Below, piece after piece: positions 25,471 to 48,218 of a stretch of 64,000 nucleotides of DNA. The position numbers and the translations under genes are program-made. This stretch comes from a virus (taxonomy: Duplodnaviria; Caudoviricetes), in the IMG/VR virus record IMGVR_UViG_3300025133_000020; one strand, given 5' to 3'. Each line of letters starts with the position of its first letter. Position 1 is the first letter of the stretch. Below the pieces are notes generated by a model that worked only from the letters and a program-made list of their open reading frames with translations, was not told where the DNA came from and searched no databases.

Positions 25471-26382
25471 GGTCTGGTAGAACTTCACCTAACTTTAACA
25501 TATTTATAAGTGTGAGACTCTACCCAATATTTGAAACCCTTATTACATCAAACGATGAGTATAATATAGACTCATATATGAATGGGACTATAACAGAAGT
25601 CGAATTTTTTCATGGTTTAGAGCAACTTCACGAAGGTGTGGGAGATAAACTAGTCAATTTTGTGGGTAAAATGCTCACCAAGCTTAAAAGTTACTTTAAT
25701 GATATTGCTAAATACGGTAAGAAACTATTAAAAGCGTTAGGGTGGTTAGTCGATAAGACTAAAGGCATCTACGATAAATACCCAAATGTAGTTAAAGCCT
25801 TAGTTATCCTTACGGTTATGGTAGCACTGATATTAGTGTCAACCGCAGCAGTTGCTGCTGGTGGCGAACCTATTAGTATCGACCCAACATATTTGAACGT
25901 AGTCATAGGTTATGCAAACGAAACTGAAATAGCCCCTAAATCATTAGCAATGCTAATTGACGCAAAAGATGGAACTATAGATGATGCTCAATGGAACGCT
26001 AATGAGGTTAAAAATGTCTTCAGCCAATTGAAGAATGAATTGACCGAAGCCCTCAATGGTATCAGAGCCAAGCAAGTTATCGATGATGCTGATAGTGCCA
26101 CCGCATTTGATGCTATGAGCGATAGGATTAACACTATGCAGGGTCAATCTAACAGCGACATTGAAAGATTAAGGGGTAAGCTTGATGCTATGCCCTTCAA
26201 ACCTAATCCAGATAAGGCTCTTATGCTTATTGACATGTTACATGAAATGGGGGAGAAGCTGGTAGGGTACTCATATAAGATTACCACAAAGGACGCTGAT
26301 GGGTATGACCAAATTAGACAAGTATATAATTTTTACGGTAAACAGTAACGTGGGATACCTAAGAAACGTTAAGGTCTGGTAG
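25450..26382 (+). repeat. 31-bp direct repeats (29/31 identical) flanking an inserted gene cassette
   Basis: GGAATACCTAAGAAGCGTTAAGGTCTGGTAG (25450-25480) and GGGATACCTAAGAAACGTTAAGGTCTGGTAG (26352-26382). Confidence 0.85.
25512..26348 (+). CDS. hypothetical membrane-anchored protein (moron-like insert)
   Basis: GTG start just after TATTTATA; one strong TM segment. Confidence 0.6.
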   Translation: MRLYPIFETLITSNDEYNIDSYMNGTITEVEFFHGLEQLHEGVGDKLVNFVGKMLTKLKSYFNDIAKYGKKLLKALGWLVDKTKGIYDKYPNVVKALVILTVMVALILVSTAAVAAGGEPISIDPTYLNVVIGYANETEIAPKSLAMLIDAKDGTIDDAQWNANEVKNVFSQLKNELTEALNGIRAKQVIDDADSATAFDAMSDRINTMQGQSNSDIERLRGKLDAMPFKPNPDKALMLIDMLHEMGEKLVGYSYKITTKDADGYDQIRQVYNFYGKQ

Positions 26383-29388: not shown

Positions 29389-29747
29389 GGGGGTGACTGG
29401 TTTTGACTGTCACTGATTGGGTATGTAAGCAAGCACTGGGATTTAGATTATACCAGTATAAAATGTGTCTGAAAAAACGAAGAGACGAGAATATCGTAAC
29501 TACAGGAGAATACCTTCTAAGAGAAGTCTTTGAAGGGGAGCTAGCGCTAGCTGCATAATAAGCGCCTAATTGAGTAAAGCTTGATAAAACCTCAGTGTCC
29601 ATTCATTGATGAGGTTAACTACAAAGAATGGTGGGTTTGCAAATTCCGACAAAGATTTGCTAGTTTGTTTATTTAGAAAAATATTCTAAGCTTGTAGAAA
29701 GTATATGTAACTTTAATAGGACGAGGGTTCGACTCCCTCCACCTCCA
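29389..29747 (+). ncRNA. ssrA: tmRNA
   Basis: 5' GGGGGTGACTGGTTTTGAC and 3' GGACGAGGGTTCGACTCCCTCCACCTCCA; G3-U70 pair; tag ORF 29502-29558 TGEYLLREVFEGELALAA; CCA not encoded. Confidence 0.92.
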
Positions 29748-29867
29748 CAAAAACATTAATAGTGCTGAAAAGCTTCCACGTAGTGGAACTTTAGACCCTC
29801 TGATAATGCACCTTCAGGGGGCTTTCTTTTTATATTAACACCATATTTACTATTAAAGGAGATAGTT

Positions 29868-39183: not shown

Positions 39184-39255
39184 GGTGTTTGAAGCTTTAA
39201 GGTGAAGCGCTTGACTGTGAATCAAGAGAAGTGGGGTCGCTACCCATCTTACACC
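39184..39255 (+). tRNA. tRNA-His(GTG), atypical
   Basis: G-1:C73; CTTGA-CTGTGAA-TCAAG; two acceptor mismatches; T loop GTCGCTA. Confidence 0.65.
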
Positions 39256-40630: not shown

Positions 40631-40718
40631 GGAAGAATAAACCAAGTCGGTCTACGGGTTGCTGCTTTGAAACCAGTTAGGTGTAACAGCCGTGAGAGTT
40701 CGAGTCTCTCTTCTTCCG
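40631..40718 (+). tRNA. tRNA-Ser(TGA)
   Basis: Class II cloverleaf, G73. Confidence 0.85.
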
Positions 40719-40770: not shown

Positions 40771-41427
40771 ATGGCTAGGAAACAGAAAACGATACACTAC
40801 ATCTACAAGACTACTTGTGAAGTGACAAACAGATACTATGTTGGGATGCATAGTACCAATAATCTGGAAGATGGTTATATGGGAAGTGGCAAACGATTGA
40901 GAGCTTCAATCAGGAAACATGGTGAAGACAACCACACCAAAGAAATAATAGCTTTCTACGATACAAGAGAGTTATTAGCGGAAGCGGAGAAGGAAGTTAT
41001 CACAGATGATATGGTTGATGACAAAAATTGTATGAATCTGATGGGTGGTGGGAACGGTGGCTTCATCAGTGATGAGCAACAGAGGTATCGTTCTGAGTGT
41101 GGTGGTAAAGCATTACATGAGAAAATGAGAACCGATAAAGAGTTTAGAGAGTTACAGGGTGAAAAGTTATCTAAATCAGTTAAACAGGCTCATGTTGAAG
41201 GTAAGATGAAAACTTGGAAGGATAATTACGATTGGACTGGTAAATCACATTCTGAAGAGACTAAACGTAAGATGAGTGACACTAATAAAGGTAAGGGTAC
41301 TGGTGAAGCCAATTCTCAATATGGTACCTGCTGGATAACCAAAGATGGTTCCAACAAGAAAGTAAAGAAATCTGAATTGGATGTCCATATAACCCAAGGT
41401 TGGGAAAAAGGCAGAAAGATAAATTAA
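40771..41427 (+). CDS. GIY-YIG (Seg-like) homing endonuclease with NUMOD3
   Basis: HYIYKTT...YYVGMHST..GYMGSG; HSEETKRKMS. Confidence 0.85.
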   Translation: MARKQKTIHYIYKTTCEVTNRYYVGMHSTNNLEDGYMGSGKRLRASIRKHGEDNHTKEIIAFYDTRELLAEAEKEVITDDMVDDKNCMNLMGGGNGGFISDEQQRYRSECGGKALHEKMRTDKEFRELQGEKLSKSVKQAHVEGKMKTWKDNYDWTGKSHSEETKRKMSDTNKGKGTGEANSQYGTCWITKDGSNKKVKKSELDVHITQGWEKGRKIN

Positions 41428-41781: not shown

Positions 41782-41856
41782 GGAACTGTGACATAATTGG
41801 TTTAATCATGCGCCCTGTTAAGGCAGCATATGTTGGTTCGAGTCCAACCAGTTCCG
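41782..41856 (+). tRNA. tRNA-Asn(GTT)
   Basis: Perfect acceptor and T arm; weak anticodon stem. Confidence 0.7.
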
Positions 41857-42241: not shown

Positions 42242-42318
42242 TGTGCAGTAACCAGCATGTCTGATACACATGACTAAGGTAACGGTTGAAAATATCGGTT
42301 CGAATCCCTATTGCACAA
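42242..42318 (+). tRNA. rearranged tRNA-Ile(GAT)
   Basis: Acceptor-TA-ACC-[CATGT CTGATAC ACATG]-GGT-AACGG...-T loop; A73; weak T stem. Confidence 0.65.
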
Positions 42319-42324
42319 CTTTAT

Positions 42325-42415
42325 AGGCATATAGCAGCCCAACCTGATAAGTTGGAGAACTGTAGTTGGTATCTTGAGATAGCATCAAACGTGGGTTCGA
42401 ATCCCACTTTGCCTA
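42325..42415 (+). tRNA. rearranged tRNA-Ile(GAT)
   Basis: AGGCATA-TA-GCAG-[CCAAC CTGATAA GTTGG]-CTGT-AGTTGG...-GTGGG TTCGAAT CCCAC; A73. Confidence 0.75.
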
Positions 42416-42547
42416 CAACAATCCTCCCATTGCCTCTCATTGAAGCACACTTTGGGTTATAGTGATTATCAATGGATGGCGCCAGAAGTTGATATGAGTT
42501 ATAACAGATGTTTATGGTCATCTGGGTCCTTGCTTAAAACCATACTT

Positions 42548-42627
42548 CCAGAATTACCGAGCCAAGCTTATATCTTGGATATTCGTAGCGGTTGTTGCAA
42601 ACAAGGGTTCGAATCCCTTATTCTGGA
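42548..42627 (+). tRNA. rearranged tRNA-Ile(TAT)
   Basis: CCAGAAT/ATTCTGG; CGAG/TTCG enclosing CCAAG CTTATAT CTTGG; perfect T arm; A73. Confidence 0.75.
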
Positions 42628-42683
42628 CTGGAGGTTTACTTTTTGTACTTTAGCCTTATATTTATATCTAAACAATATAGATT

Positions 42684-43328
42684 ATGGCAAGAAAAGAAAA
42701 AAAGTACCACTACATATACAAAACGACTAATTTACTTAGTGGTAGATATTACATAGGAATGCATAGCACCGATAACCTTGACGATGGTTATATGGGTTCT
42801 GGAACAAGACTTAGGCGTTCACTTAATAAACATGGTGAGGAAAATCATAAGGTCGAGTTCTTAGAGTTCCTTGATACTCGGAAAGAGTTGAAGGAACGGG
42901 AAGCTGAAATAGTTAACCTTAATGAGGTAGCCAAAGTGGACTGTATGAATCTGAAGGTGGGTGGTGAAGGTGGGTTATCGAGTGAAGAACACAAGGTAGC
43001 ATTTATAAATGCTGGTATTGTGGGTAGAGAATCCTTTAGGGATAAACTAACAAATGATAAGGAATTCCGTAAGAGACATATAGATATGTTTACTGGGATG
43101 GTAAAGGAACGTCACGCTTCTGGTGAAGTTAATTACAATACGTTTGAAGGTAAAACGCATACAGAGGAAACTAAAGAGAAGATGAGGAAGTCTAAGAACG
43201 TAGGTAAAGCTAACTCACAATACGGCACTTGTTGGATAATCAGAGATGGTGATAATAAGAAGATAAATAAAGAAGACCTTAACGAATATCTTGATAAAGG
43301 TTGGGTTAAGGGTCGTAAAATGAAATAA
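42684..43328 (+). CDS. GIY-YIG (Seg-like) homing endonuclease with NUMOD3
   Basis: Paralog of 40771. Confidence 0.85.
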   Translation: MARKEKKYHYIYKTTNLLSGRYYIGMHSTDNLDDGYMGSGTRLRRSLNKHGEENHKVEFLEFLDTRKELKEREAEIVNLNEVAKVDCMNLKVGGEGGLSSEEHKVAFINAGIVGRESFRDKLTNDKEFRKRHIDMFTGMVKERHASGEVNYNTFEGKTHTEETKEKMRKSKNVGKANSQYGTCWIIRDGDNKKINKEDLNEYLDKGWVKGRKMK

Positions 43329-43333
43329 TATAT

Positions 43334-43405
43334 CGCGGGGTGGAGCAGTAGTAGCTCGTTAGGCTCATAACCTAGAGGTCGAAGGTGCAAATCCTTCTCC
43401 CGCTT
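43334..43405 (+). tRNA. tRNA-Met(CAT), initiator-like
   Basis: C1-U72 mismatch, CGCGGGG acceptor. Confidence 0.8.
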
Positions 43406-43416
43406 CTAAAACATAT

Positions 43417-43503
43417 CGCGGATATGAAGGCTGGTGGTGATGCTTGGGTAGTCTCATAAGCTACTATCGTAATGATGTATAGGTTCGATTCCTATATCCG
43501 CAA
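43417..43503 (+). tRNA. tRNA-Met(CAT), initiator-like with long variable arm
   Basis: C1-A72 mismatch; extra ATCG-TAA-TGAT arm. Confidence 0.75.
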
Positions 43504-43508
43504 CTAAA

Positions 43509-43817
43509 GGGGGTGACCGAGTTCTGGGAGACTCAACCTTAAAGCACGAAAATGGTCGTGAGGCAGTAACATGTCGGTCAATAGTAATTTCAATCTTTCC
43601 CACGGTTTACAGAATGCACCTATAGCGACCAAAGTTCTTTTGGTGGTGAATAAAAACAAGCAAGGGAAGCAAGCTCTCCAAGAAAGATTGACCCGATGAA
43701 ATATCGACTTAGTAAGAGAGTAATCAGTGGATTTGATATGAAGCGCTGACAGAAAAATGCTAGACAGACGAGTAAACGGTTCCATTGATTATGTGGGTTC
43801 GAATCCCATCATCTCCA
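43509..43817 (+). ncRNA. second tmRNA-like / large Ala-type tRNA-like RNA (309 nt)
   Basis: GGGGGTG/CATCTCC acceptor with G3-U70 and A73, canonical T arm, highly paired interior; no ALAA tag found. Confidence 0.6.
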
Positions 43818-43830
43818 CAAAAAATTATAT

Positions 43831-43901
43831 CGCGGGTAGCTTAGTAGCAATCAGGTCTCATAAGCCTTGACGTGTAAAGGGAGCGTTACCCTTACCCGCA
43901 T
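43831..43901 (+). tRNA. degenerate tRNA-Met(CAT)
   Basis: CGCGGGT/ACCCGCA acceptor and CTCATAA loop; D and T arms are eroded. Confidence 0.5.
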
Positions 43902-43941
43902 CAAAAAACGCTTGGTTCGCATAGTGGCTGATTGCATAAAC

Positions 43942-44023
43942 GGATGAGTAGCCTAGTGGTCAGGCAACAGACTGTTAATCTGTGAGGGAAACTTCTACGT
44001 TGGTTCGAACCCAACCTCATCCG
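43942..44023 (+). tRNA. tRNA-Asn(GTT) with long variable arm
   Basis: ACAGA-CTGTTAA-TCTGT; GAGG-GAAA-CTTC extra arm; G73. Confidence 0.8.
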
Positions 44024-44067
44024 CACTTTTACTTTTATGTGTATATTTATTAACAAAGACAGTTAAT

Positions 44068-44502
44068 ATGCCAAGGAAAGTAAATGACGAATTAATAGTG
44101 AAGATGAAGGAAGATTATGCTTCTGGTAAATCTTCTAGAACCATAGCTAAAGACGTTGGTATTAGTAAGAGTACTGTAATGGTATATGTTAATCCTAAAG
44201 TATTGACACCCGAAGAGATTGAGGAAAAGAGGCGTAAGAATGTTGAAACTGTAACTAATTGGAGACGAAATTTAAAGAAGAGGGGTATCGACTATAAGGG
44301 TGGTTCATGTGAAGTATGTGGTTATGATAAATGTAATGAGGCGTTAGAATTTCACCACAAAGACCCAAATGAGAAGGATTTTGGTATTGGCGCTAACGGT
44401 CATACTAGGTCTTGGGAGAAAGTGAAAATAGAGTTAGATAAGTGTATGATAGTTTGCTCTAATTGTCATAGAGAAATACACGCTGGATTAATAGAATGTT
44501 AA
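44068..44502 (+). CDS. HNH endonuclease with N-terminal HTH
   Basis: CEVC..ALEFHH..VCSNCHREIH. Confidence 0.85.
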   Translation: MPRKVNDELIVKMKEDYASGKSSRTIAKDVGISKSTVMVYVNPKVLTPEEIEEKRRKNVETVTNWRRNLKKRGIDYKGGSCEVCGYDKCNEALEFHHKDPNEKDFGIGANGHTRSWEKVKIELDKCMIVCSNCHREIHAGLIEC

Positions 44503-44543
44503 CTCTCAGGTCGAGATTTCGAAATTCTCACTAGGAGCAATAA

Positions 44544-44618
44544 CCCGATATGGTGTAATGGCTAGCACGACACTCTCATAAGGTGTACGACACAGTTCGA
44601 TTCTGTGTATCGGGACCA
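44544..44618 (+). tRNA. tRNA with CAT anticodon (elongator Met or Ile2)
   Basis: Canonical cloverleaf with encoded CCA. Confidence 0.88.
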
Positions 44619-45012
44619 TTGACATTCTCAGATATTAGTTGTATATTGGTATTATGGACTTAATTACCGATAATAAAAGATTAGAATATCGTCACATAGT
44701 CGAACATGAGGGTGAGACGTGGGTTAGGAAAGAATACATGTCACCCCAATGCTTCGCATGGGAAGATGAACCAGATAGACTTAGAGATTCACATACCATT
44801 TCTTGGTATCCAATGGATGATGAGGATACTCTTTATGGTTATTACAGTTGTTCTATGGGTTGGTCTAAGGATGGACACTTACATAAAGACAACCCGATAC
44901 CAGAAATAGAAGTGGAATTCAGGAAAACCAATGGTAAAGATTTATGTTATTTCAACAACATAGAAACACCTCAATAACCCATATTGACATTCTCAGATAT
45001 TAGTAGTATATT
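44618..45012 (+). repeat. duplicated promoter cassette
   Basis: ATTGACATTCTCAGATATTAGT at 44618-44639 and 44983-45004, each followed by GTATATT and an ORF. Confidence 0.8.
44654..44977 (+). CDS. hypothetical protein
   Basis: ATG directly after the duplicated promoter. Confidence 0.55.
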   Translation: MDLITDNKRLEYRHIVEHEGETWVRKEYMSPQCFAWEDEPDRLRDSHTISWYPMDDEDTLYGYYSCSMGWSKDGHLHKDNPIPEIEVEFRKTNGKDLCYFNNIETPQ

Positions 45013-45018
45013 TGTAGT

Positions 45019-45351
45019 ATGGAAGATAAACAATTTTATTCAAAGTATAAGTTTCGAATTAAAGTGGAGCTTATTGATGGGGTTACCTATTATACACCAC
45101 AAAAAGCGGAATACCCAGTATTGTCTGGTGAATTCACATCTACTGAAGGTAGGAAAGTACCCATGCGAAGTGTAGATGGAAGATGGGAGCCAACACCAGA
45201 AGAATACTGGAAAACTGGCAAATGGCTCGACCTACCGATAACATCAAATGATGCGATGGAAAAAAATATTGCCCAAGAAGTAATCGACCATCACTTATTG
45301 ATGGAGAAGCTAGATAGTGGCATGTTCATTAAAGAATATTTAGAAGTATGA
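45019..45351 (+). CDS. hypothetical protein
   Basis: ATG directly after the duplicated promoter. Confidence 0.55.
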   Translation: MEDKQFYSKYKFRIKVELIDGVTYYTPQKAEYPVLSGEFTSTEGRKVPMRSVDGRWEPTPEEYWKTGKWLDLPITSNDAMEKNIAQEVIDHHLLMEKLDSGMFIKEYLEV

Positions 45352-45662
45352 GCAAAATCAAAGACTTCTTAATAGAGTACAAGAGTACCATAAACATACC
45401 AGCACTTATTGTGTTGGTCGTCTTATTCGATTCAGTTATAATACTCACTGAGCAGAACGTGAAACTAATGCTTGGATTCGACCTTTTCCTTTTCGTAGGG
45501 ACAATCGTCAATTATATTGGTTGGAAACTAAAGAATAGGAATGAGGAAGAGATAGAAGAAATGGTATGTAGCAAATGTGGTAAGACACCAGTTTACATAG
45601 CGTGTCCTGACCATTGTGAAGAGTGCTACATTAAGTACGAAGTAAACGAAAAAGTACTATGA
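45348..45662 (+). CDS. two-TM protein with C-terminal Zn ribbon
   Basis: Hydrophobic pair; CSKC..CPDHCEEC. Confidence 0.55.
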   Translation: MSKIKDFLIEYKSTINIPALIVLVVLFDSVIILTEQNVKLMLGFDLFLFVGTIVNYIGWKLKNRNEEEIEEMVCSKCGKTPVYIACPDHCEECYIKYEVNEKVL

Positions 45663-45964
45663 CCGAAGAAGAAAGAAAAAAAGGTTTGAACCATATGAAA
45701 GAGGTTCGAAGAAAGGTTCAAGAAAAATGGGAATCTACTGGGTTCCTAGATGGACTGGAAGGGCACATTAAAGAGAATATGACTATCTTAATGGAGAACC
45801 AAGAAAACGCTGTGATAAGCGAGAACCCAACTGGTATGACAAAAGAATGGGATGGGGTGTATTTACCTATCGTAAAACATGTATTCAAGGAACAACTGGC
45901 TGACCAGATACACACACCACTTGCGATACATGTGGCTAAACAATTATCAGGTCATACTTTTTAA
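45659..45964 (+). CDS. stand-alone homolog of the major capsid protein N-terminal region
   Basis: KWESTGFLDGLEGHIKENMTILMENQ...YLPIVKHVF resembles gp23-type N-termini. Confidence 0.55.
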   Translation: MTEEERKKGLNHMKEVRRKVQEKWESTGFLDGLEGHIKENMTILMENQENAVISENPTGMTKEWDGVYLPIVKHVFKEQLADQIHTPLAIHVAKQLSGHTF

Positions 45965-45973
45965 TAATAAAAT

Positions 45974-46053
45974 GCAGGTGTAACCGAGTGTAGCTACGAA
46001 CTACATATCCGTAATAGGAGTTGCAAATGTGGGTTCGATTCCCTCCACCTGTT
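45974..46053 (+). tRNA. rearranged tRNA-Arg(ACG)
   Basis: GCAGGTG-TA-ACCG-[TGTAG CTACGAA CTACA]-CGT-AATAGGAGTTGCAAAT-T arm; U73. Confidence 0.75.
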
Positions 46054-46066
46054 CTAAATAATAAAC

Positions 46067-46207
46067 ATGAGAGCATACACTAACAAGACTGATAAGGTAG
46101 ATAGTCGAAAATGCCTTTACAGCGAAATCAGAGCTAACGATAAAGCTAGAAAGAAGGCTGCAAGGCGAGAAGCAAAACAAGAGTTCGAATCTCTTGGAGG
46201 GTACTAA
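46067..46207 (+). CDS. small basic ORF ending in a tRNA 3'-half remnant
   Basis: 46 aa; the last codons are AAGAG-TTCGAAT-CTCTT-GGAGGGT-A. Confidence 0.45.
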   Translation: MRAYTNKTDKVDSRKCLYSEIRANDKARKKAARREAKQEFESLGGY

Positions 46208-46391
46208 AAATTGATATAATGGCAACAGTATATAAGATTGAGATTGAAGCAGTAAGTCCTTGGACTAATTATCCACCAGAAGTGGTGGAAGAGATGCTTA
46301 AAGAGTTGATAGAGAAACGTAGAGATGCGAAAGGTAGTCGAACCTTTCAAGATAACGTTAAGGTCAACGTAACGCGAAAAGCGTAAAATAT

Positions 46392-46470
46392 GGCGGTGTA
46401 ACCCGTTCAGGTTTCGACCCTGTTAACGGTAATGGAGTTGCAAATGTGGGTTCGAGTCCCACCTCCGTCT
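46392..46470 (+). tRNA. rearranged tRNA-Arg(TCG)
   Basis: GGCGGTG-TA-ACCCGT-[CAGG TTTCGAC CCTG]-ACGGT-AATGGAGTTGCAAAT-T arm; U73. Confidence 0.75.
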
Positions 46471-46507
46471 CCCTGAACTTTTGTACCTTAGCTGCATATT
46501 TATATGT

Positions 46508-47152
46508 ATGAGGAAACAAAAGAAATATCATTACATCTATAAGACTACTTGTAGTGTAACAAATAGATACTATGTTGGAATGCATAGTACAGATAATTTA
46601 GATGATGGATATATGGGTAGTGGTAAACGCCTGTGGCACTCATTTAACTATCATGGAAAGGATAATCATTCAGTAGAGATATTGGAGTATTATGATACCA
46701 GAAAGGGGTTGAGAGAACGAGAGGCTGAGTTGGTTAATGAAGACCTATTGAAAGAAGATTTATGTATGAATCTAAAGACAGGTGGTGATGGTGGGTTCGT
46801 TAATTTATCCGCATGTACTAAAGGTGGTCACGCCAGAGCTAAATCTACTAACCGCATAATGTGGGATGAAAATCCAGAGAAATATTTTGAAATCTTTTCT
46901 ACTAGAATGAAAAAAACGTGGGAAGACCCAGAATATAGAGAGAAGATGTTGAAGGTTATTAATTGGGAAGGTAGAGAACATAGCGAAGAAACCAAACAGA
47001 AGATGTCTGAAACCAAAAAAGGTACTGGCACTGGTAAAACTAACTCACAGTATGGTACTTGTTGGATAACCAAGGATGGCTACAATAAGAAGATAAAGAA
47101 AGAAGAGTTAAACGAATATATTGAGAATAGTTGGGTTAAAGGGAGAAAATGA
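46508..47152 (+). CDS. GIY-YIG (Seg-like) homing endonuclease with NUMOD3
   Basis: Third paralog of 40771/42684. Confidence 0.85.
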   Translation: MRKQKKYHYIYKTTCSVTNRYYVGMHSTDNLDDGYMGSGKRLWHSFNYHGKDNHSVEILEYYDTRKGLREREAELVNEDLLKEDLCMNLKTGGDGGFVNLSACTKGGHARAKSTNRIMWDENPEKYFEIFSTRMKKTWEDPEYREKMLKVINWEGREHSEETKQKMSETKKGTGTGKTNSQYGTCWITKDGYNKKIKKEELNEYIENSWVKGRK

Positions 47153-47188
47153 CTTGTTTCCCTCATATTAATTGTGTATCTTTGTAAG

Positions 47189-47776
47189 ATGGTTAAGATT
47201 AGTTTAGGTGATGGTTTATTTACCATAATTGATGATTCCAACTACGATAAGGTATCTAAATATACTTGGCATGTAACTCCAAGTAATTATGCTGCCGCTA
47301 CGATAGGTGGGGTTACTATACTACTACATAGGTTTATCATTAATCCACCCGTTGGTATGGTCGTTGACCATATAGATGGTGATAGGTTAGACAATAGGAA
47401 GAACAATCTCAGAGTCTGTACACAGGGTGAGAATCTTAGAAACCGACTTAAACATTATAGAGGTGGTACATCAAAGTATAAGGGTGTGAGTTATAATCGT
47501 GAAGCAGGTAAATGGTTAACTAGAATAAGGGTAGAGAATGTGAAATATGGTTTGGGGTCTTATCACGATGAATTAGACGCAGCCTTAGCTTACAATATTG
47601 GTAGTGTGTTATTATCACCTAAATTTGGTAAGCTTAACGTTATACCTTGTATAAACAACGAACGAATATTATCCAACTATACTTGTTCAAAATTGGTGAA
47701 GGTCAGTAAATTATCATTGGGTGTTACTAAGGAAGTATTAACCAAATACAAATATGAAAGAAAACGAAGAGATTGA
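47189..47776 (+). CDS. HNH endonuclease with AP2 domain
   Basis: VVDHIDGDRLDNRKNNLR; SKYKGVS...AALAYN. Confidence 0.85.
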   Translation: MVKISLGDGLFTIIDDSNYDKVSKYTWHVTPSNYAAATIGGVTILLHRFIINPPVGMVVDHIDGDRLDNRKNNLRVCTQGENLRNRLKHYRGGTSKYKGVSYNREAGKWLTRIRVENVKYGLGSYHDELDAALAYNIGSVLLSPKFGKLNVIPCINNERILSNYTCSKLVKVSKLSLGVTKEVLTKYKYERKRRD

Positions 47777-48068
47777 TTTATTAGGGACACTAACCCTATA
47801 TAAGAAGGGTGGTAGAATGACCCCAATGTGGTCAGGCTACTGGGGCGCTGCTGATGTCGATGGTGATTTACATTCTTGTGGGTTCCTATTCGATGAAAAG
47901 GAATTAGCGCTGGGTGAATCATGTGAAGCTCGTATGAGATTCTTATTCAGTTCACACGAAGCCTTCAACGTAAAAACTTCAGTAGGTGCAACCTTAGTGA
48001 TGAAAGAAGGTGTACGAAGTATAGGTGAATTCGAGGTCACCGAAATATTAAATGCCTCTATGGTGTAA
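47754..48068 (+). CDS. small protein resembling EF-Tu domain III
   Basis: GGRMTPMWSGY...GATLVMKEGVRSIGEFEV; the stop codon lies within tRNA-Arg(CCT). Confidence 0.45.
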   Translation: MKENEEIDLLGTLTLYKKGGRMTPMWSGYWGAADVDGDLHSCGFLFDEKELALGESCEARMRFLFSSHEAFNVKTSVGATLVMKEGVRSIGEFEVTEILNASMV

Positions 48069-48126
48069 CTGGATAGCATAAGTCTTTCCTAAAGATTTAG
48101 TTCGGGTTCGAGTCCTGGTAGGGGTA
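48054..48126 (+). tRNA. tRNA-Arg(CCT)
   Basis: Canonical cloverleaf. Confidence 0.85.
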
Positions 48127-48137
48127 CAATGCAAAAT

Positions 48138-48218
48138 GGTGGAGTAGTCCCGACTTTTTTCTAAATAGTTAAGGGTAATTGGAAGCTGCAAATGAGGGTT
48201 CGACCCCCTTCTCCACTT
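48138..48218 (+). tRNA. rearranged tRNA-Arg(TCT)
   Basis: GGTGGAG-TA-GTCC-[anticodon arm, loop TTTCTAA]-GGGT-AATTGGAAGCTGCAAAT-T arm; U73. Confidence 0.65.

What the first reader, a model, noticed from the sequence alone, without database searches (positions are those of the whole stretch)
42242..48218. A family of six tRNAs with a rearranged fold: anticodon arm caps the D-stem, D-loop GG moved downstream
Seen: Ile(GAU) 42242-42318 and 42325-42415, Ile(UAU) 42548-42627, Arg(ACG) 45974-46053, Arg(UCG) 46392-46470 and Arg(UCU) 48138-48218 share one layout. It runs: 7-bp acceptor, U8A9, 3-5 nt stem strand, anticodon arm with a 7-nt loop, complementary stem strand, an A..GG..(TTGC)AAAY segment resembling a D-loop, T arm, acceptor. 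The enclosing stem covaries (ACC/GGT, GCAG/CTGT, CGAG/TTCG, GTCC/GGGT). The discriminator follows the family: A73 in all Ile members, U73 in all Arg members. In this window they are the only clear Ile(GAU/UAU) and Arg(CGN) decoders, and leader 39041 contains those codons. Inference: a functional alternative tRNA topology that may keep the L-shape while escaping anticodon nucleases. Standard tRNA scanners would probably miss or mislabel them. U73 is atypical for bacterial tRNA-Arg, so charging identity is open.
Basis: partly seen in the sequence, partly recalled or inferred. Interest (0 to 1): 0.92.

Follow-up and report, generated by a model that had tools for sequence, protein, structure and literature searches.

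The report
Rewired non-cloverleaf phage tRNAs (Arg, Ile)
Six genes in this marine phage's tRNA cluster are arginine and isoleucine tRNAs with no normal D hairpin, part of a large and almost never annotated phage family, which conflicts with the view that all tRNAs used in bacteria are cloverleaves.

Summary
All six elements sit at the stated coordinates with the stated anticodons. ARAGORN finds none of them. Rfam's tRNA model aligns them only by deleting the D-arm and adding an insert of about 20 nt.

I collected 160-175 distinct relatives, depending on the filter, from 133 IMG/VR phage loci. Further copies lie unannotated in Maribacter phage Panino and Salmonella phage Felix O1.

On 96 distinct Arg members aligned by MAFFT, covariation supports:
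- a 3-bp helix that encloses the anticodon arm;
- a Levitt-type R15:Y48 tertiary pair (AU 83, GC 11).

Identity nucleotides follow the amino acid. After GG, Arg has A (125/133) and Ile has U (22/27). Ile has A73 in 27/27. The genes also encode 3' CCA exactly when their canonical neighbours do.

Best reading (0.8): working elongator tRNAs with a rewired D domain that keep the L-shape. Escape from nucleases is untested. Copy 42242-42318 has a broken T stem and may be decaying. I found no published description. This scan has already noted the Arg family in Felix O1-type phages. The Ile members, the extra helix and the Levitt pair may be additions; the short notes I saw do not mention them.

The parts
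42242..42318 (+). Rewired tRNA-Ile(GAU), 77 nt, short subtype. A 3-bp helix (ACC/GGU) encloses the anticodon arm, followed by AACGGU and a UGAAAAU linker. There is no P1. The T stem has only 2 of 5 pairs, so this may be a decaying copy.
   Evidence: Sequence read. RF00005 17.9 bits. Model R1 31 bits. The ortholog L053:4498-4574 has an intact T stem.
42325..42415 (+). Rewired tRNA-Ile(GAU), 91 nt. P1 is A9-G10 with C-U. P2 is CAG/CUG. The D-loop-like segment is AGUUGGUAU. A small extra hairpin (UGA-N7-UCA) sits where the canonical anticodon or variable arm would be.
   Evidence: 35.7 bits; 37.9 bits. The ortholog L053:4580-4670 differs by a compensatory change at the Levitt-type pair (G:C against A:U).
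42548..42627 (+). Rewired tRNA-Ile(UAU), 80 nt. P1 is A9-C10 with G-U, so a single linker base (U8) precedes it. P2 is CGA/UCG. The D-loop-like segment is AGCGGUU, and the linker is UGCAAAC.
   Evidence: 36.8 bits; 60 bits.
45974..46053 (+). Rewired tRNA-Arg(ACG), 80 nt, used as the exemplar. Acceptor 45974-45980 with 46046-46052. U8-A9 at 45981-45982. P1 is 45983-45984 with 46020-46021. P2 is 45985-45987 with 46009-46011. Anticodon arm 45989-46005, with the anticodon at 45996-45998. D-loop-like segment 46012-46019. Linker 46022-46028. The Levitt-type pair is 46014 with 46028. T arm 46029-46045. Discriminator U at 46053.
   Evidence: 28.4 bits; 87.8 bits, E 5.5e-20.
46392..46470 (+). Rewired tRNA-Arg(UCG), 79 nt. 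P1 is A-C with G-U. P2 is CCG(U)/(A)CGG.
   Evidence: 27.1 bits; 84.6 bits. It differs from L022:7083-7161 only by the compensatory change in P1 (A:U to G:C) and one T-loop base.
48138..48218 (+). Rewired tRNA-Arg(UCU), 81 nt. P1 is G-U with G-C (one G-C and one U.G pair). P2 is CCC/GGG. It lies 10 nt after the canonical tRNA-Arg(CCU) at 48054-48127.
   Evidence: 28.8 bits; 75 bits.

Best explanation
These are working elongator tRNAs for arginine and isoleucine in which the D domain is wired in a different order.

The order of parts along the RNA is:
1. The 7-bp acceptor strand, then U8 (and A9 in Arg).
2. Two bases that form helix P1.
3. Three bases that form helix P2.
4. An ordinary anticodon arm, entered directly from P2.
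5. The strand returning from the anticodon arm, which completes P2.
6. A D-loop-like segment, U-A-R-Y-U-G-G-A in Arg (U in place of the last A in Ile).
7. Two bases that complete P1.
8. An A-rich linker (UGNAAAY), then a canonical T arm and acceptor strand.

P2 and the anticodon stem stack into the long arm of the L. The displaced D-loop still reaches the T loop through GG, pairs its R15 with the last linker base (Y48) and presents position 20 to the synthetase.

Shown here: the helices, the tertiary pair, the identity nucleotides and the CCA habit.
Inferred: processing by RNase P and the 3' end-maturation enzymes, charging by host ArgRS or IleRS, delivery by EF-Tu and decoding on the ribosome.
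Unknown: why phages keep this form.
For: 1. Structure. RNAalifold, given no hint, predicts P1 and P2 on 27 sequences. On 96 distinct MAFFT-aligned Arg members (A2 columns):
- 10:52 is GC 53, AU 39, CG 2, other 2;
- 11:51 is CG 80, UA 5, UG 5, AU 4, other 2;
- 12:41 is CG 95, UA 1;
- 13:40 is GC 72, AU 14, CG 10, with none unpaired;
- 14:39 is 66% paired.
Overall 94.8% of cells are paired, against 40-46% when partners are slid by 1-3 columns.

2. An unbiased MI-APC scan of all column pairs puts only the proposed pairs in the top 20, plus 44:60.

3. Pair 44:60 is AU 83, GC 11, other 2. It joins the second D-loop base to the base before the T stem, which is the R15:Y48 Levitt pattern.

4. At least four independent double switches at P1 occur among close relatives. 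Window 46392-46470 and L022 differ at these two bases and one other.

5. The short subtype also has a covarying enclosing helix: CG 25, UA 6, GC 1 at one pair and CG 22, GC 10, AU 3 at the next.

6. Identity nucleotides. After GG, Arg has A in 125/133 and Ile has U in 22/27. Ile has A73 in 27/27, while Arg position 73 is free. This matches A20 for bacterial Arg and U20 plus A73 for Ile (PMC9976931).

7. 3' CCA. Where canonical tRNAs of the same array mostly encode CCA, 50/53 rewired genes do too. Where they rarely do, 57/59 do not.

8. Anticodon loops are standard, with U33 and a purine at 37.

9. Arrays with a rewired Arg(ACG) rarely also hold a canonical one: 2/27 against 18/51.

10. E. coli EF-Tu, ribosome and HisRS accept an engineered D-armless tRNA without adaptation (PMC11551756).
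Against: - There is no direct evidence of expression, processing, charging or decoding.
- For UCU, GAU and UAU the rewired gene coexists with a canonical tRNA of the same anticodon about as often as expected without replacement: 14/47 against 9/31 for UCU. The window itself has both forms of Arg(UCU).
- P1 and P2 are short, the third P2 pair is unpaired in a third of members, and single-sequence folding is not distinctive (z between -0.4 and -1.8).
- How P1, the 8-9 nt bulge and U8 are arranged in three dimensions cannot be settled from sequence.
- The set of relatives was gathered with motifs taken from Arg and Ile members, so the near-restriction to these two amino acids is partly an ascertainment effect.
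Confidence: 0.8

Rival explanations
1. They are tRNA-shaped RNAs that are not adaptors. They could be decoys that soak up host tRNA-directed nucleases or modification enzymes, or regulators or primers that only need an acceptor/T minihelix and an anticodon-like loop.
For: A rewired and a canonical tRNA with the same anticodon coexist in about 30% of arrays for UCU, including this window. No charging data exist.
Against: A decoy for loop-directed nucleases would not need synthetase identity nucleotides outside the loop, yet these are kept: A after GG in Arg, U in Ile, and A73 in all Ile members. The genes follow the CCA habit of true tRNAs. Rewired Arg(ACG) tends to replace the canonical gene.
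Confidence: 0.1
2. They are canonical tRNAs after unusual processing, such as an excised insert or rearranged halves, so the mature RNA would be a cloverleaf.
For: Infernal can align them to the tRNA model if about 20 nt are treated as an insert.
Against: Removing the insert leaves no D-arm at all. The D-loop-like segment lies 3' of the anticodon arm, so no simple excision gives the canonical order. The 'insert' is the most conserved part and covaries with the 5' region and with the base before the T stem. No intron-like or bulge-helix-bulge features were seen.
Confidence: 0.03
3. They are decaying tRNA pseudogenes. This is offered for the family as a whole; it remains a serious possibility only for the single copy at 42242-42318.
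For: Low Rfam scores. 42242-42318 has a broken T stem and sits beside a second Ile(GAU) gene.
Against: There are 160 or more distinct sequences with compensatory changes in every helix, 94.8% of cells paired, invariant tertiary nucleotides and conserved anticodon loops.
Confidence: 0.02

Closest known systems
Canonical bacterial and phage tRNA-Arg and tRNA-Ile (Rfam RF00005 cloverleaf)
   Same: A 7-bp acceptor, U8, a 5-bp anticodon stem with a 7-nt loop (U33, purine 37), a 5-bp T stem with the GGUUCGAAU-type loop, a D-loop sequence with A14, R15 and G18-G19, an R15:Y48 covarying pair, A20 (Arg) or U20 (Ile), A73 in Ile, and 3' CCA encoded as in neighbouring genes.
   Different: There is no D hairpin. 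The anticodon arm is entered directly from the strand that follows U8-A9. The D-loop-like segment lies 3' of the anticodon arm. The D-stem is replaced by P2 (3 bp) plus P1 (2 bp), with the D-loop as a bulge between their 3' strands. No 4-5 nt variable loop joins the anticodon stem to the T stem. The secondary structure is a three-way rather than a four-way junction.
D-arm-lacking mitochondrial tRNAs, for example animal mt-tRNA-Ser(AGY) and nematode mt-tRNA-Ser (PMC7609411, PMC4013460)
   Same: No D hairpin, with the acceptor strand joined to the anticodon stem by a short connector. They are functional in translation.
   Different: As the review read describes them, the mitochondrial forms have a short T arm and a flexible connector in place of the D-arm, and adopt a less rigid shape than the L. 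That they lack the GG and T-loop elbow contacts and depend on co-evolved mitochondrial factors is my recollection of those papers, not something I re-read. The phage forms keep a full D-loop sequence, a canonical T loop and the Levitt-type pair. They are of normal length (77-91 nt) and must work with an unadapted bacterial apparatus.
Engineered D-armless 'mini HisT' used by E. coli (PMC11551756)
   Same: It shows that bacterial EF-Tu, ribosome and a synthetase tolerate loss of the D hairpin.
   Different: It is artificial and has no D-loop substitute. The phage family is natural, widespread and retains the D-loop in a new position.
Rewired tRNA-Arg of Felix O1-type phages, and the two-anticodon-arm tRNA-Ile of T1-like phages
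   Same: The Felix O1 gene at NC_005282 25951-26029 matches my model (42.9 bits). It has a CUC/GAG helix around the anticodon arm followed by AAGUGGA.
   Different: The Felix O1 form has a 4-nt linker and no clear P1. The two-arm Ile tRNAs keep a second arm at the canonical site. The 91-nt genes here have only a 3-bp stub there. A link between the two families is a lead that I did not test.

Membership tests
tRNA, canonical cloverleaf (Rfam RF00005) | 7-bp acceptor stem, with the discriminator and 3' end treated like a tRNA | tested here: met
   98.2% of cells are paired and all 7 pairs covary. Encoding of CCA follows the canonical neighbours.
tRNA, canonical cloverleaf (Rfam RF00005) | T arm: 5-bp stem and 7-nt T-loop of the UUCRANY type | tested here: met
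   97.9% of cells are paired and the loop is invariant (UUC.A). The exception is window 42242-42318, with 2 of 5 pairs.
tRNA, canonical cloverleaf (Rfam RF00005) | Anticodon arm: 5-bp stem and 7-nt loop with U33 and a purine at 37 | tested here: met
   My collection filter required U33 and a purine at 37, so their presence in the relatives is by construction. The informative part is the loop make-up (CU-NNN-AA or CU-NNN-AC in most) and that the six window genes, found independently, have the same loops.
tRNA, canonical cloverleaf (Rfam RF00005) | D-arm hairpin (10-13 paired with 22-25, closing the D-loop) located 5' of the anticodon arm | tested here: not met
   Infernal deletes the D-arm in all six. 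The D-loop-like segment is 3' of the anticodon arm.
tRNA, canonical cloverleaf (Rfam RF00005) | Tertiary core: R15:Y48 covarying pair and G18-G19 available for the T loop | tested here: met
   Columns 44:60 are AU 83, GC 11, other 2. GG is nearly invariant. The physical contacts themselves cannot be tested here.
tRNA, canonical cloverleaf (Rfam RF00005) | Score at or above Rfam's gathering threshold (29 bits) | tested here: inconclusive
   Two of six pass (36.8 and 35.8 bits), three fall just below (27.1-28.8) and one is at 17.9.
D-arm-lacking mitochondrial tRNAs | Loss of the D hairpin together with loss of the D-loop/T-loop elbow contacts, and a shortened molecule | tested here: not met
   The D hairpin is absent, but the D-loop sequence, a canonical T loop and the Levitt-type pair are retained. 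Length is 77-91 nt.
allo-tRNAs (8/4 or 9/3 acceptor/T branch; PMC5389517) | Acceptor stem of 8 or 9 bp with a T stem of 4 or 3 bp | tested here: not met
   All members have the 7/5 configuration.
Rewired phage tRNA family (this scan's earlier notes; not published as far as I could find) | A short covarying helix wrapped around the anticodon arm, followed 3' by a D-loop-like A-R-..-GG segment and a canonical T arm | tested here: met
   Model R1 built on this layout also finds the Felix O1 and Panino genes.

The most novel reading that the evidence does not exclude
The rewired core is an adaptation in the arms race. It yields tRNAs that host ArgRS, IleRS, EF-Tu and ribosomes still accept, but that host tRNA-directed defences or turnover enzymes, which read the D-arm or the core geometry, no longer recognise. 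This would explain why phages keep a rewired copy beside a canonical tRNA of the same anticodon.
Probability: 0.2. Interest if true: 0.95.

Novelty: new variant of a known kind. Interest (0 to 1): 0.85.

Why it matters
[quoted passage not shown] If these genes work as adaptors, they are a natural and widespread exception used on bacterial ribosomes. In them the D-stem connectivity is dispensable, while the D-loop, the Levitt pair and the elbow are kept.

That makes three questions directly testable:
- which parts of the tRNA core the synthetases, EF-Tu and the ribosome really need;
- whether such a scaffold can serve in orthogonal translation systems;
- whether phages use fold changes, and not only anticodon-loop changes, against tRNA-targeting immunity.

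There is also a practical consequence. About 90% of these genes are missed by ARAGORN. They are unannotated in Felix O1 and Panino, where one is covered by a spurious 'hypothetical protein'. Phage tRNA inventories and codon-supply analyses are therefore systematically incomplete for Arg and Ile.

Tried and rejected
- Expression. Two look-ups of public runs listed no RNA holder for the window.
- Whole genome. None is held for the window, so the phage's full tRNA complement is unknown.
- Close relatives among deposited phages. None was found for the 6.5-kb region beyond homing-endonuclease matches. The 91-nt Ile gene has no blastn match, and Ile(UAU) matches only one uncultured 642-kb phage.
- Single-sequence thermodynamic folding. 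It gave mixed structures and weak z-scores, which is not informative for or against.
- Possible extension of P1 by U8.G and A9-U with the invariant UG of the linker, as RNAalifold suggested. All four bases are invariant, so this cannot be tested by covariation. The Ile members, which have one base fewer, cannot form it.
- Local protein partners. ORFs between the tRNAs are GIY-YIG/NUMOD3 and HNH homing endonucleases or unknowns. There is no synthetase, CCA-adding enzyme or RNA repair gene.
- Prokaryote genome scan. Only 4 of the 120 returned pattern matches were true members; the rest are chance matches, of which roughly 500 are expected for that pattern. Three of the four lie on MAG contigs. 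Two of these carry tRNA arrays and the third has none in the 8 kb read. The fourth is in a Brucella haematophila contig beside chromosomal genes and unknown small ORFs.
- Literature. Five full-text searches and three papers read found no description of this layout. The library lacks most subscription journals, so absence is not proof.

Full report
**1. What is in the window**

The region 38.5-49 kb is a phage tRNA array interrupted by homing endonuclease genes. These are GIY-YIG/NUMOD3 genes at 40771-41427, 42684-43328 and 46481-47152, and HNH genes at 44068-44502 and 47174-47776.

ARAGORN reports 18 tRNAs in the window, and none of the six candidates. Scores are 36.8, 35.8, 28.8, 28.4, 27.1 and 17.9 bits. 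It does so only by deleting the D-arm and inserting 19-32 nt between the anticodon arm and the T arm.

Read directly, each has:
- a 7-bp acceptor, then U8-A9;
- 5-6 further bases;
- a 5-bp stem with a 7-nt loop carrying GAU, GAU, UAU, ACG, UCG or UCU;
- about 20 bases that contain A-R-..-GG;
- a canonical T arm.

The shared motif occurs six times against 0.02 expected by chance.

**2. It is a large family**

Three pattern scans of IMG/VR returned loci L001-L257.

A structural parse of these loci gave 133 distinct Arg-type sequences (UCU, ACG, UCG, CCU, CCG, GCG) and 27 distinct Ile-type sequences (GAU, UAU, CAU) in 133 loci. Single Lys(CUU) and Trp(CCA) members also appeared. A looser filter gave 175 distinct sequences. 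Of these ARAGORN missed 158, mislabelled 10 and called 7 correctly.

Two cultured phages carry unannotated copies:
- Maribacter phage Panino, 28066-28145. The gene lies between tRNA-Val and tRNA-Met under a 'hypothetical protein'.
- Salmonella phage Felix O1, 25951-26029. The gene is partly overlapped by an HNH endonuclease CDS.

In 185,579 prokaryote genomes the same pattern mostly gave chance matches. Four of the 120 listed were real. Three lie on MAG contigs, two of them with phage-like tRNA arrays, and one is in a Brucella haematophila contig.

With six genes and five anticodons, this window holds more rewired tRNAs than any other locus I examined. A relative, L053 (a 152-kb contig), has five.

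**3. Secondary structure**

On 27 seed sequences RNAalifold, with no guidance, predicted two non-canonical helices besides the acceptor, anticodon and T stems.

I then took every Arg member of 79-82 nt with six bases between A9 and the anticodon stem. This criterion does not look at the 3' partner strands. It gave 96 distinct sequences, aligned with MAFFT as A2.

Pair counts on A2:

| Helix | Columns | Counts |
|---|---|---|
| P1 | 10:52 | GC 53, AU 39, CG 2, other 2 |
| P1 | 11:51 | CG 80, UA 5, UG 5, AU 4, other 2 |
| P2 | 12:41 | CG 95, UA 1 |
| P2 | 13:40 | GC 72, AU 14, CG 10 |
| P2 | 14:39 | 66% paired |

The whole structure pairs in 94.8% of cells, against 40-46% when partners are slid by 1-3 columns.

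A mutual-information scan of all column pairs, with average-product correction, puts only proposed pairs in the top 20, plus one further pair.

P1 has switched between A:U and G:C at least four times among close relatives. Window 46392-46470 and L022:7083-7161 differ only at these two bases and one T-loop base.

In the short subtype (76-79 nt, which includes window 42242-42318), the helix directly after A9 pairs with the three bases before the D-loop-like segment. It also covaries: ACC/GGU, AGC/GCU, AUG/CAU and ACA/UGU all occur. That subtype has no P1.

In the longer members its register needs a small correction, because the first base or two belong to P1.

**4. Tertiary signals**

The extra covarying pair (A2 columns 44:60; AU 83, GC 11, other 2) joins the second base of the D-loop-like segment (after an invariant A) to the last linker base before the T stem. 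This is the position and the pattern of the canonical R15:Y48 Levitt pair.

The window's 91-nt Ile(GAU) and its ortholog in L053 differ by exactly this compensatory change.

Several other features point the same way:
- U8 is invariant;
- the A14-like A is invariant;
- GG is nearly invariant;
- the T loop is canonical.

Together these indicate that the displaced D-loop still builds the normal elbow and core. By inference, the molecule keeps an L-shape.

Topologically, P2 plays the part of the D-stem with its strands swapped. The strand coming from the acceptor runs down into the anticodon stem, as residues 22-25 do in a cloverleaf. The returning strand runs up into A14, as residues 10-13 do. 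P1 (R10-Y11 with G-Y) resembles the canonical 10:25 and 11:24 pairs. It clamps the 3' end of the D-loop to the top of this helix. How P1 and the 8-9 nt bulge are arranged in space is not determined.

**5. Signs of use as tRNAs**

- Position 20. The base after GG is A in 125 of 133 Arg members and U in 22 of 27 Ile members.
- Discriminator. It is A in all 27 Ile members and free in Arg (U 46, A 45, G 40, C 2).
- Published determinants. These are A20 and C35 for bacterial ArgRS, with A, G or U at 73. For IleRS they are U20, U21 and A73 (PMC9976931, Table 1).
- CCA. In arrays whose canonical tRNA genes mostly encode CCA, 50 of 53 rewired genes do so as well. In arrays that rarely encode it, 57 of 59 do not. 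Selection therefore treats their 3' ends like those of tRNAs.
- Replacement. Arrays with a rewired Arg(ACG) seldom also have a canonical one (2/27 against 18/51). No such complementarity is seen for UCU, GAU or UAU, and the window has both forms of Arg(UCU).
- Tolerance. E. coli's EF-Tu, ribosome and HisRS accept an engineered D-armless tRNA without adaptation (PMC11551756). This makes function plausible.

None of this is direct proof of charging or decoding.

**6. The individual genes**

| Coordinates | Type | P1 | P2 | Levitt-type pair |
|---|---|---|---|---|
| 45974-46053 | Arg ACG | A-U, C-G | C-G, G-C, A.C | A:U |
| 46392-46470 | Arg UCG | A-U, C-G | CCG(U)/(A)CGG | A:U |
| 48138-48218 | Arg UCU | G-C, U.G | CCC/GGG | A:U |
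| 42548-42627 | Ile UAU | A9-U, C10-G (one linker base fewer) | CGA/UCG | G:C |
| 42325-42415 | Ile GAU, 91 nt | A-U, G-C | CAG/CUG | G:C |
| 42242-42318 | Ile GAU, short subtype | none | ACC/GGU | A:U |

The 91-nt gene also has a 3-bp hairpin with a 7-nt loop inserted in the linker, at the site of the canonical anticodon or variable arm. The same insert occurs in 89-91 nt Arg and Ile relatives.

42242-42318 has a T stem with three mismatches. Its L053 ortholog is intact, so this copy may be decaying.

**7. Comparison with what is known**

The nearest described objects are:
- canonical tRNA-Arg and tRNA-Ile;
- D-armless mitochondrial tRNAs, which in the review I read have short T arms and a more flexible shape than the L;
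- the engineered mini HisT;
- allo-tRNAs, which have a different acceptor/T split.

A 2020 review of non-canonical tRNAs does not mention phage or viral tRNAs (PMC7609411). A 2024 paper states that all known bacterial tRNAs are cloverleaves. Five full-text searches found no description of this layout.

This scan has noted the Arg family before, in Felix O1-type phages. I confirmed that Felix O1 carries a member.

Compared with the short versions of those notes that I saw, this window and analysis may add:
- Ile members, and all Arg isoacceptors, in one phage;
- helix P1;
- the Levitt-type pair;
- the identity-nucleotide pattern;
- the CCA evidence.

The rewired form could have arisen from such a two-arm tRNA by loss of the canonical arm, and the 91-nt genes would fit as intermediates. 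I did not test this.

**8. Verdict**

The best reading, at 0.8, is that these are functional non-cloverleaf elongator tRNAs. The ordinary anticodon loops argue against escape from loop-specific nucleases. I file it as a new variant of a known kind, of high interest.

Noticed in passing
window 29389-29750 (+): A phage-encoded tmRNA (Rfam RF00023, 85.5 bits). A weak second tmRNA-like match lies at 43509-43820 (18 bits). Phage Panino also carries a tmRNA in its tRNA array.
   Followed up: no
window 31568-31642 (+): A tRNA with anticodon CUA, which ARAGORN labels 'Pyl' (Rfam tRNA 66.4 bits). It is an amber suppressor, so the phage may read UAG as a sense codon. I did not test ORF lengths under a recoded table.
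   Followed up: no
window 39185-39255, 40631-40718 and 41782-41856 (+): Three more tRNAs that ARAGORN misses and Rfam finds, at 40.8, 33.3 and 34.8 bits. They are a GUG (His-type) tRNA with an odd T loop, a UGA (Ser-type) tRNA with a long variable region, and a GUU (Asn-type) tRNA with an irregular D and anticodon stem. They are cloverleaf-like and are not members of the rewired family.
   Followed up: partly
window 40771-41427, 42684-43328, 44068-44502, 46481-47152 and 47174-47776: Five homing-endonuclease-type ORFs (GIY-YIG/NUMOD3 and HNH) are interleaved with the tRNA genes, as in the tRNA regions of Felix O1 and T4-like phages.
   Followed up: partly
L131:11003-11080 (-) and L185:2068-2145 (-): Single rewired members with anticodons CUU (Lys) and CCA (Trp). 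The layout is therefore not strictly limited to Arg and Ile.
   Followed up: no
L306:1222-1301 (+): ARAGORN labels this rewired tRNA-Arg(UCG) as 'tRNA-Thr (ggt)', a concrete case of mislabelling.
   Followed up: yes
L337:6518-6597 (+), Brucella haematophila CCUG 38531 contig: A rewired tRNA-Arg(UCU) lies in an isolate's chromosome. It sits between chromosomal genes (catalase, PAS/HWE kinase, iron permease) and a tRNA-Gln, among small unknown ORFs. This may be the edge of an integrated element.
   Followed up: partly
L053:3268-3366 (+): A 99-nt tRNA-like gene in the window's relative has a UCU anticodon arm at the canonical site and a much enlarged 5' (D) region. It is not of the rewired layout.
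   Followed up: no
L258:6163-11652 (-), phage Panino CDS0069: A 1,829-aa ORF annotated 'tRNA methyltransferase' lies directly beside the tRNA array that holds the rewired Arg gene.
   Followed up: no
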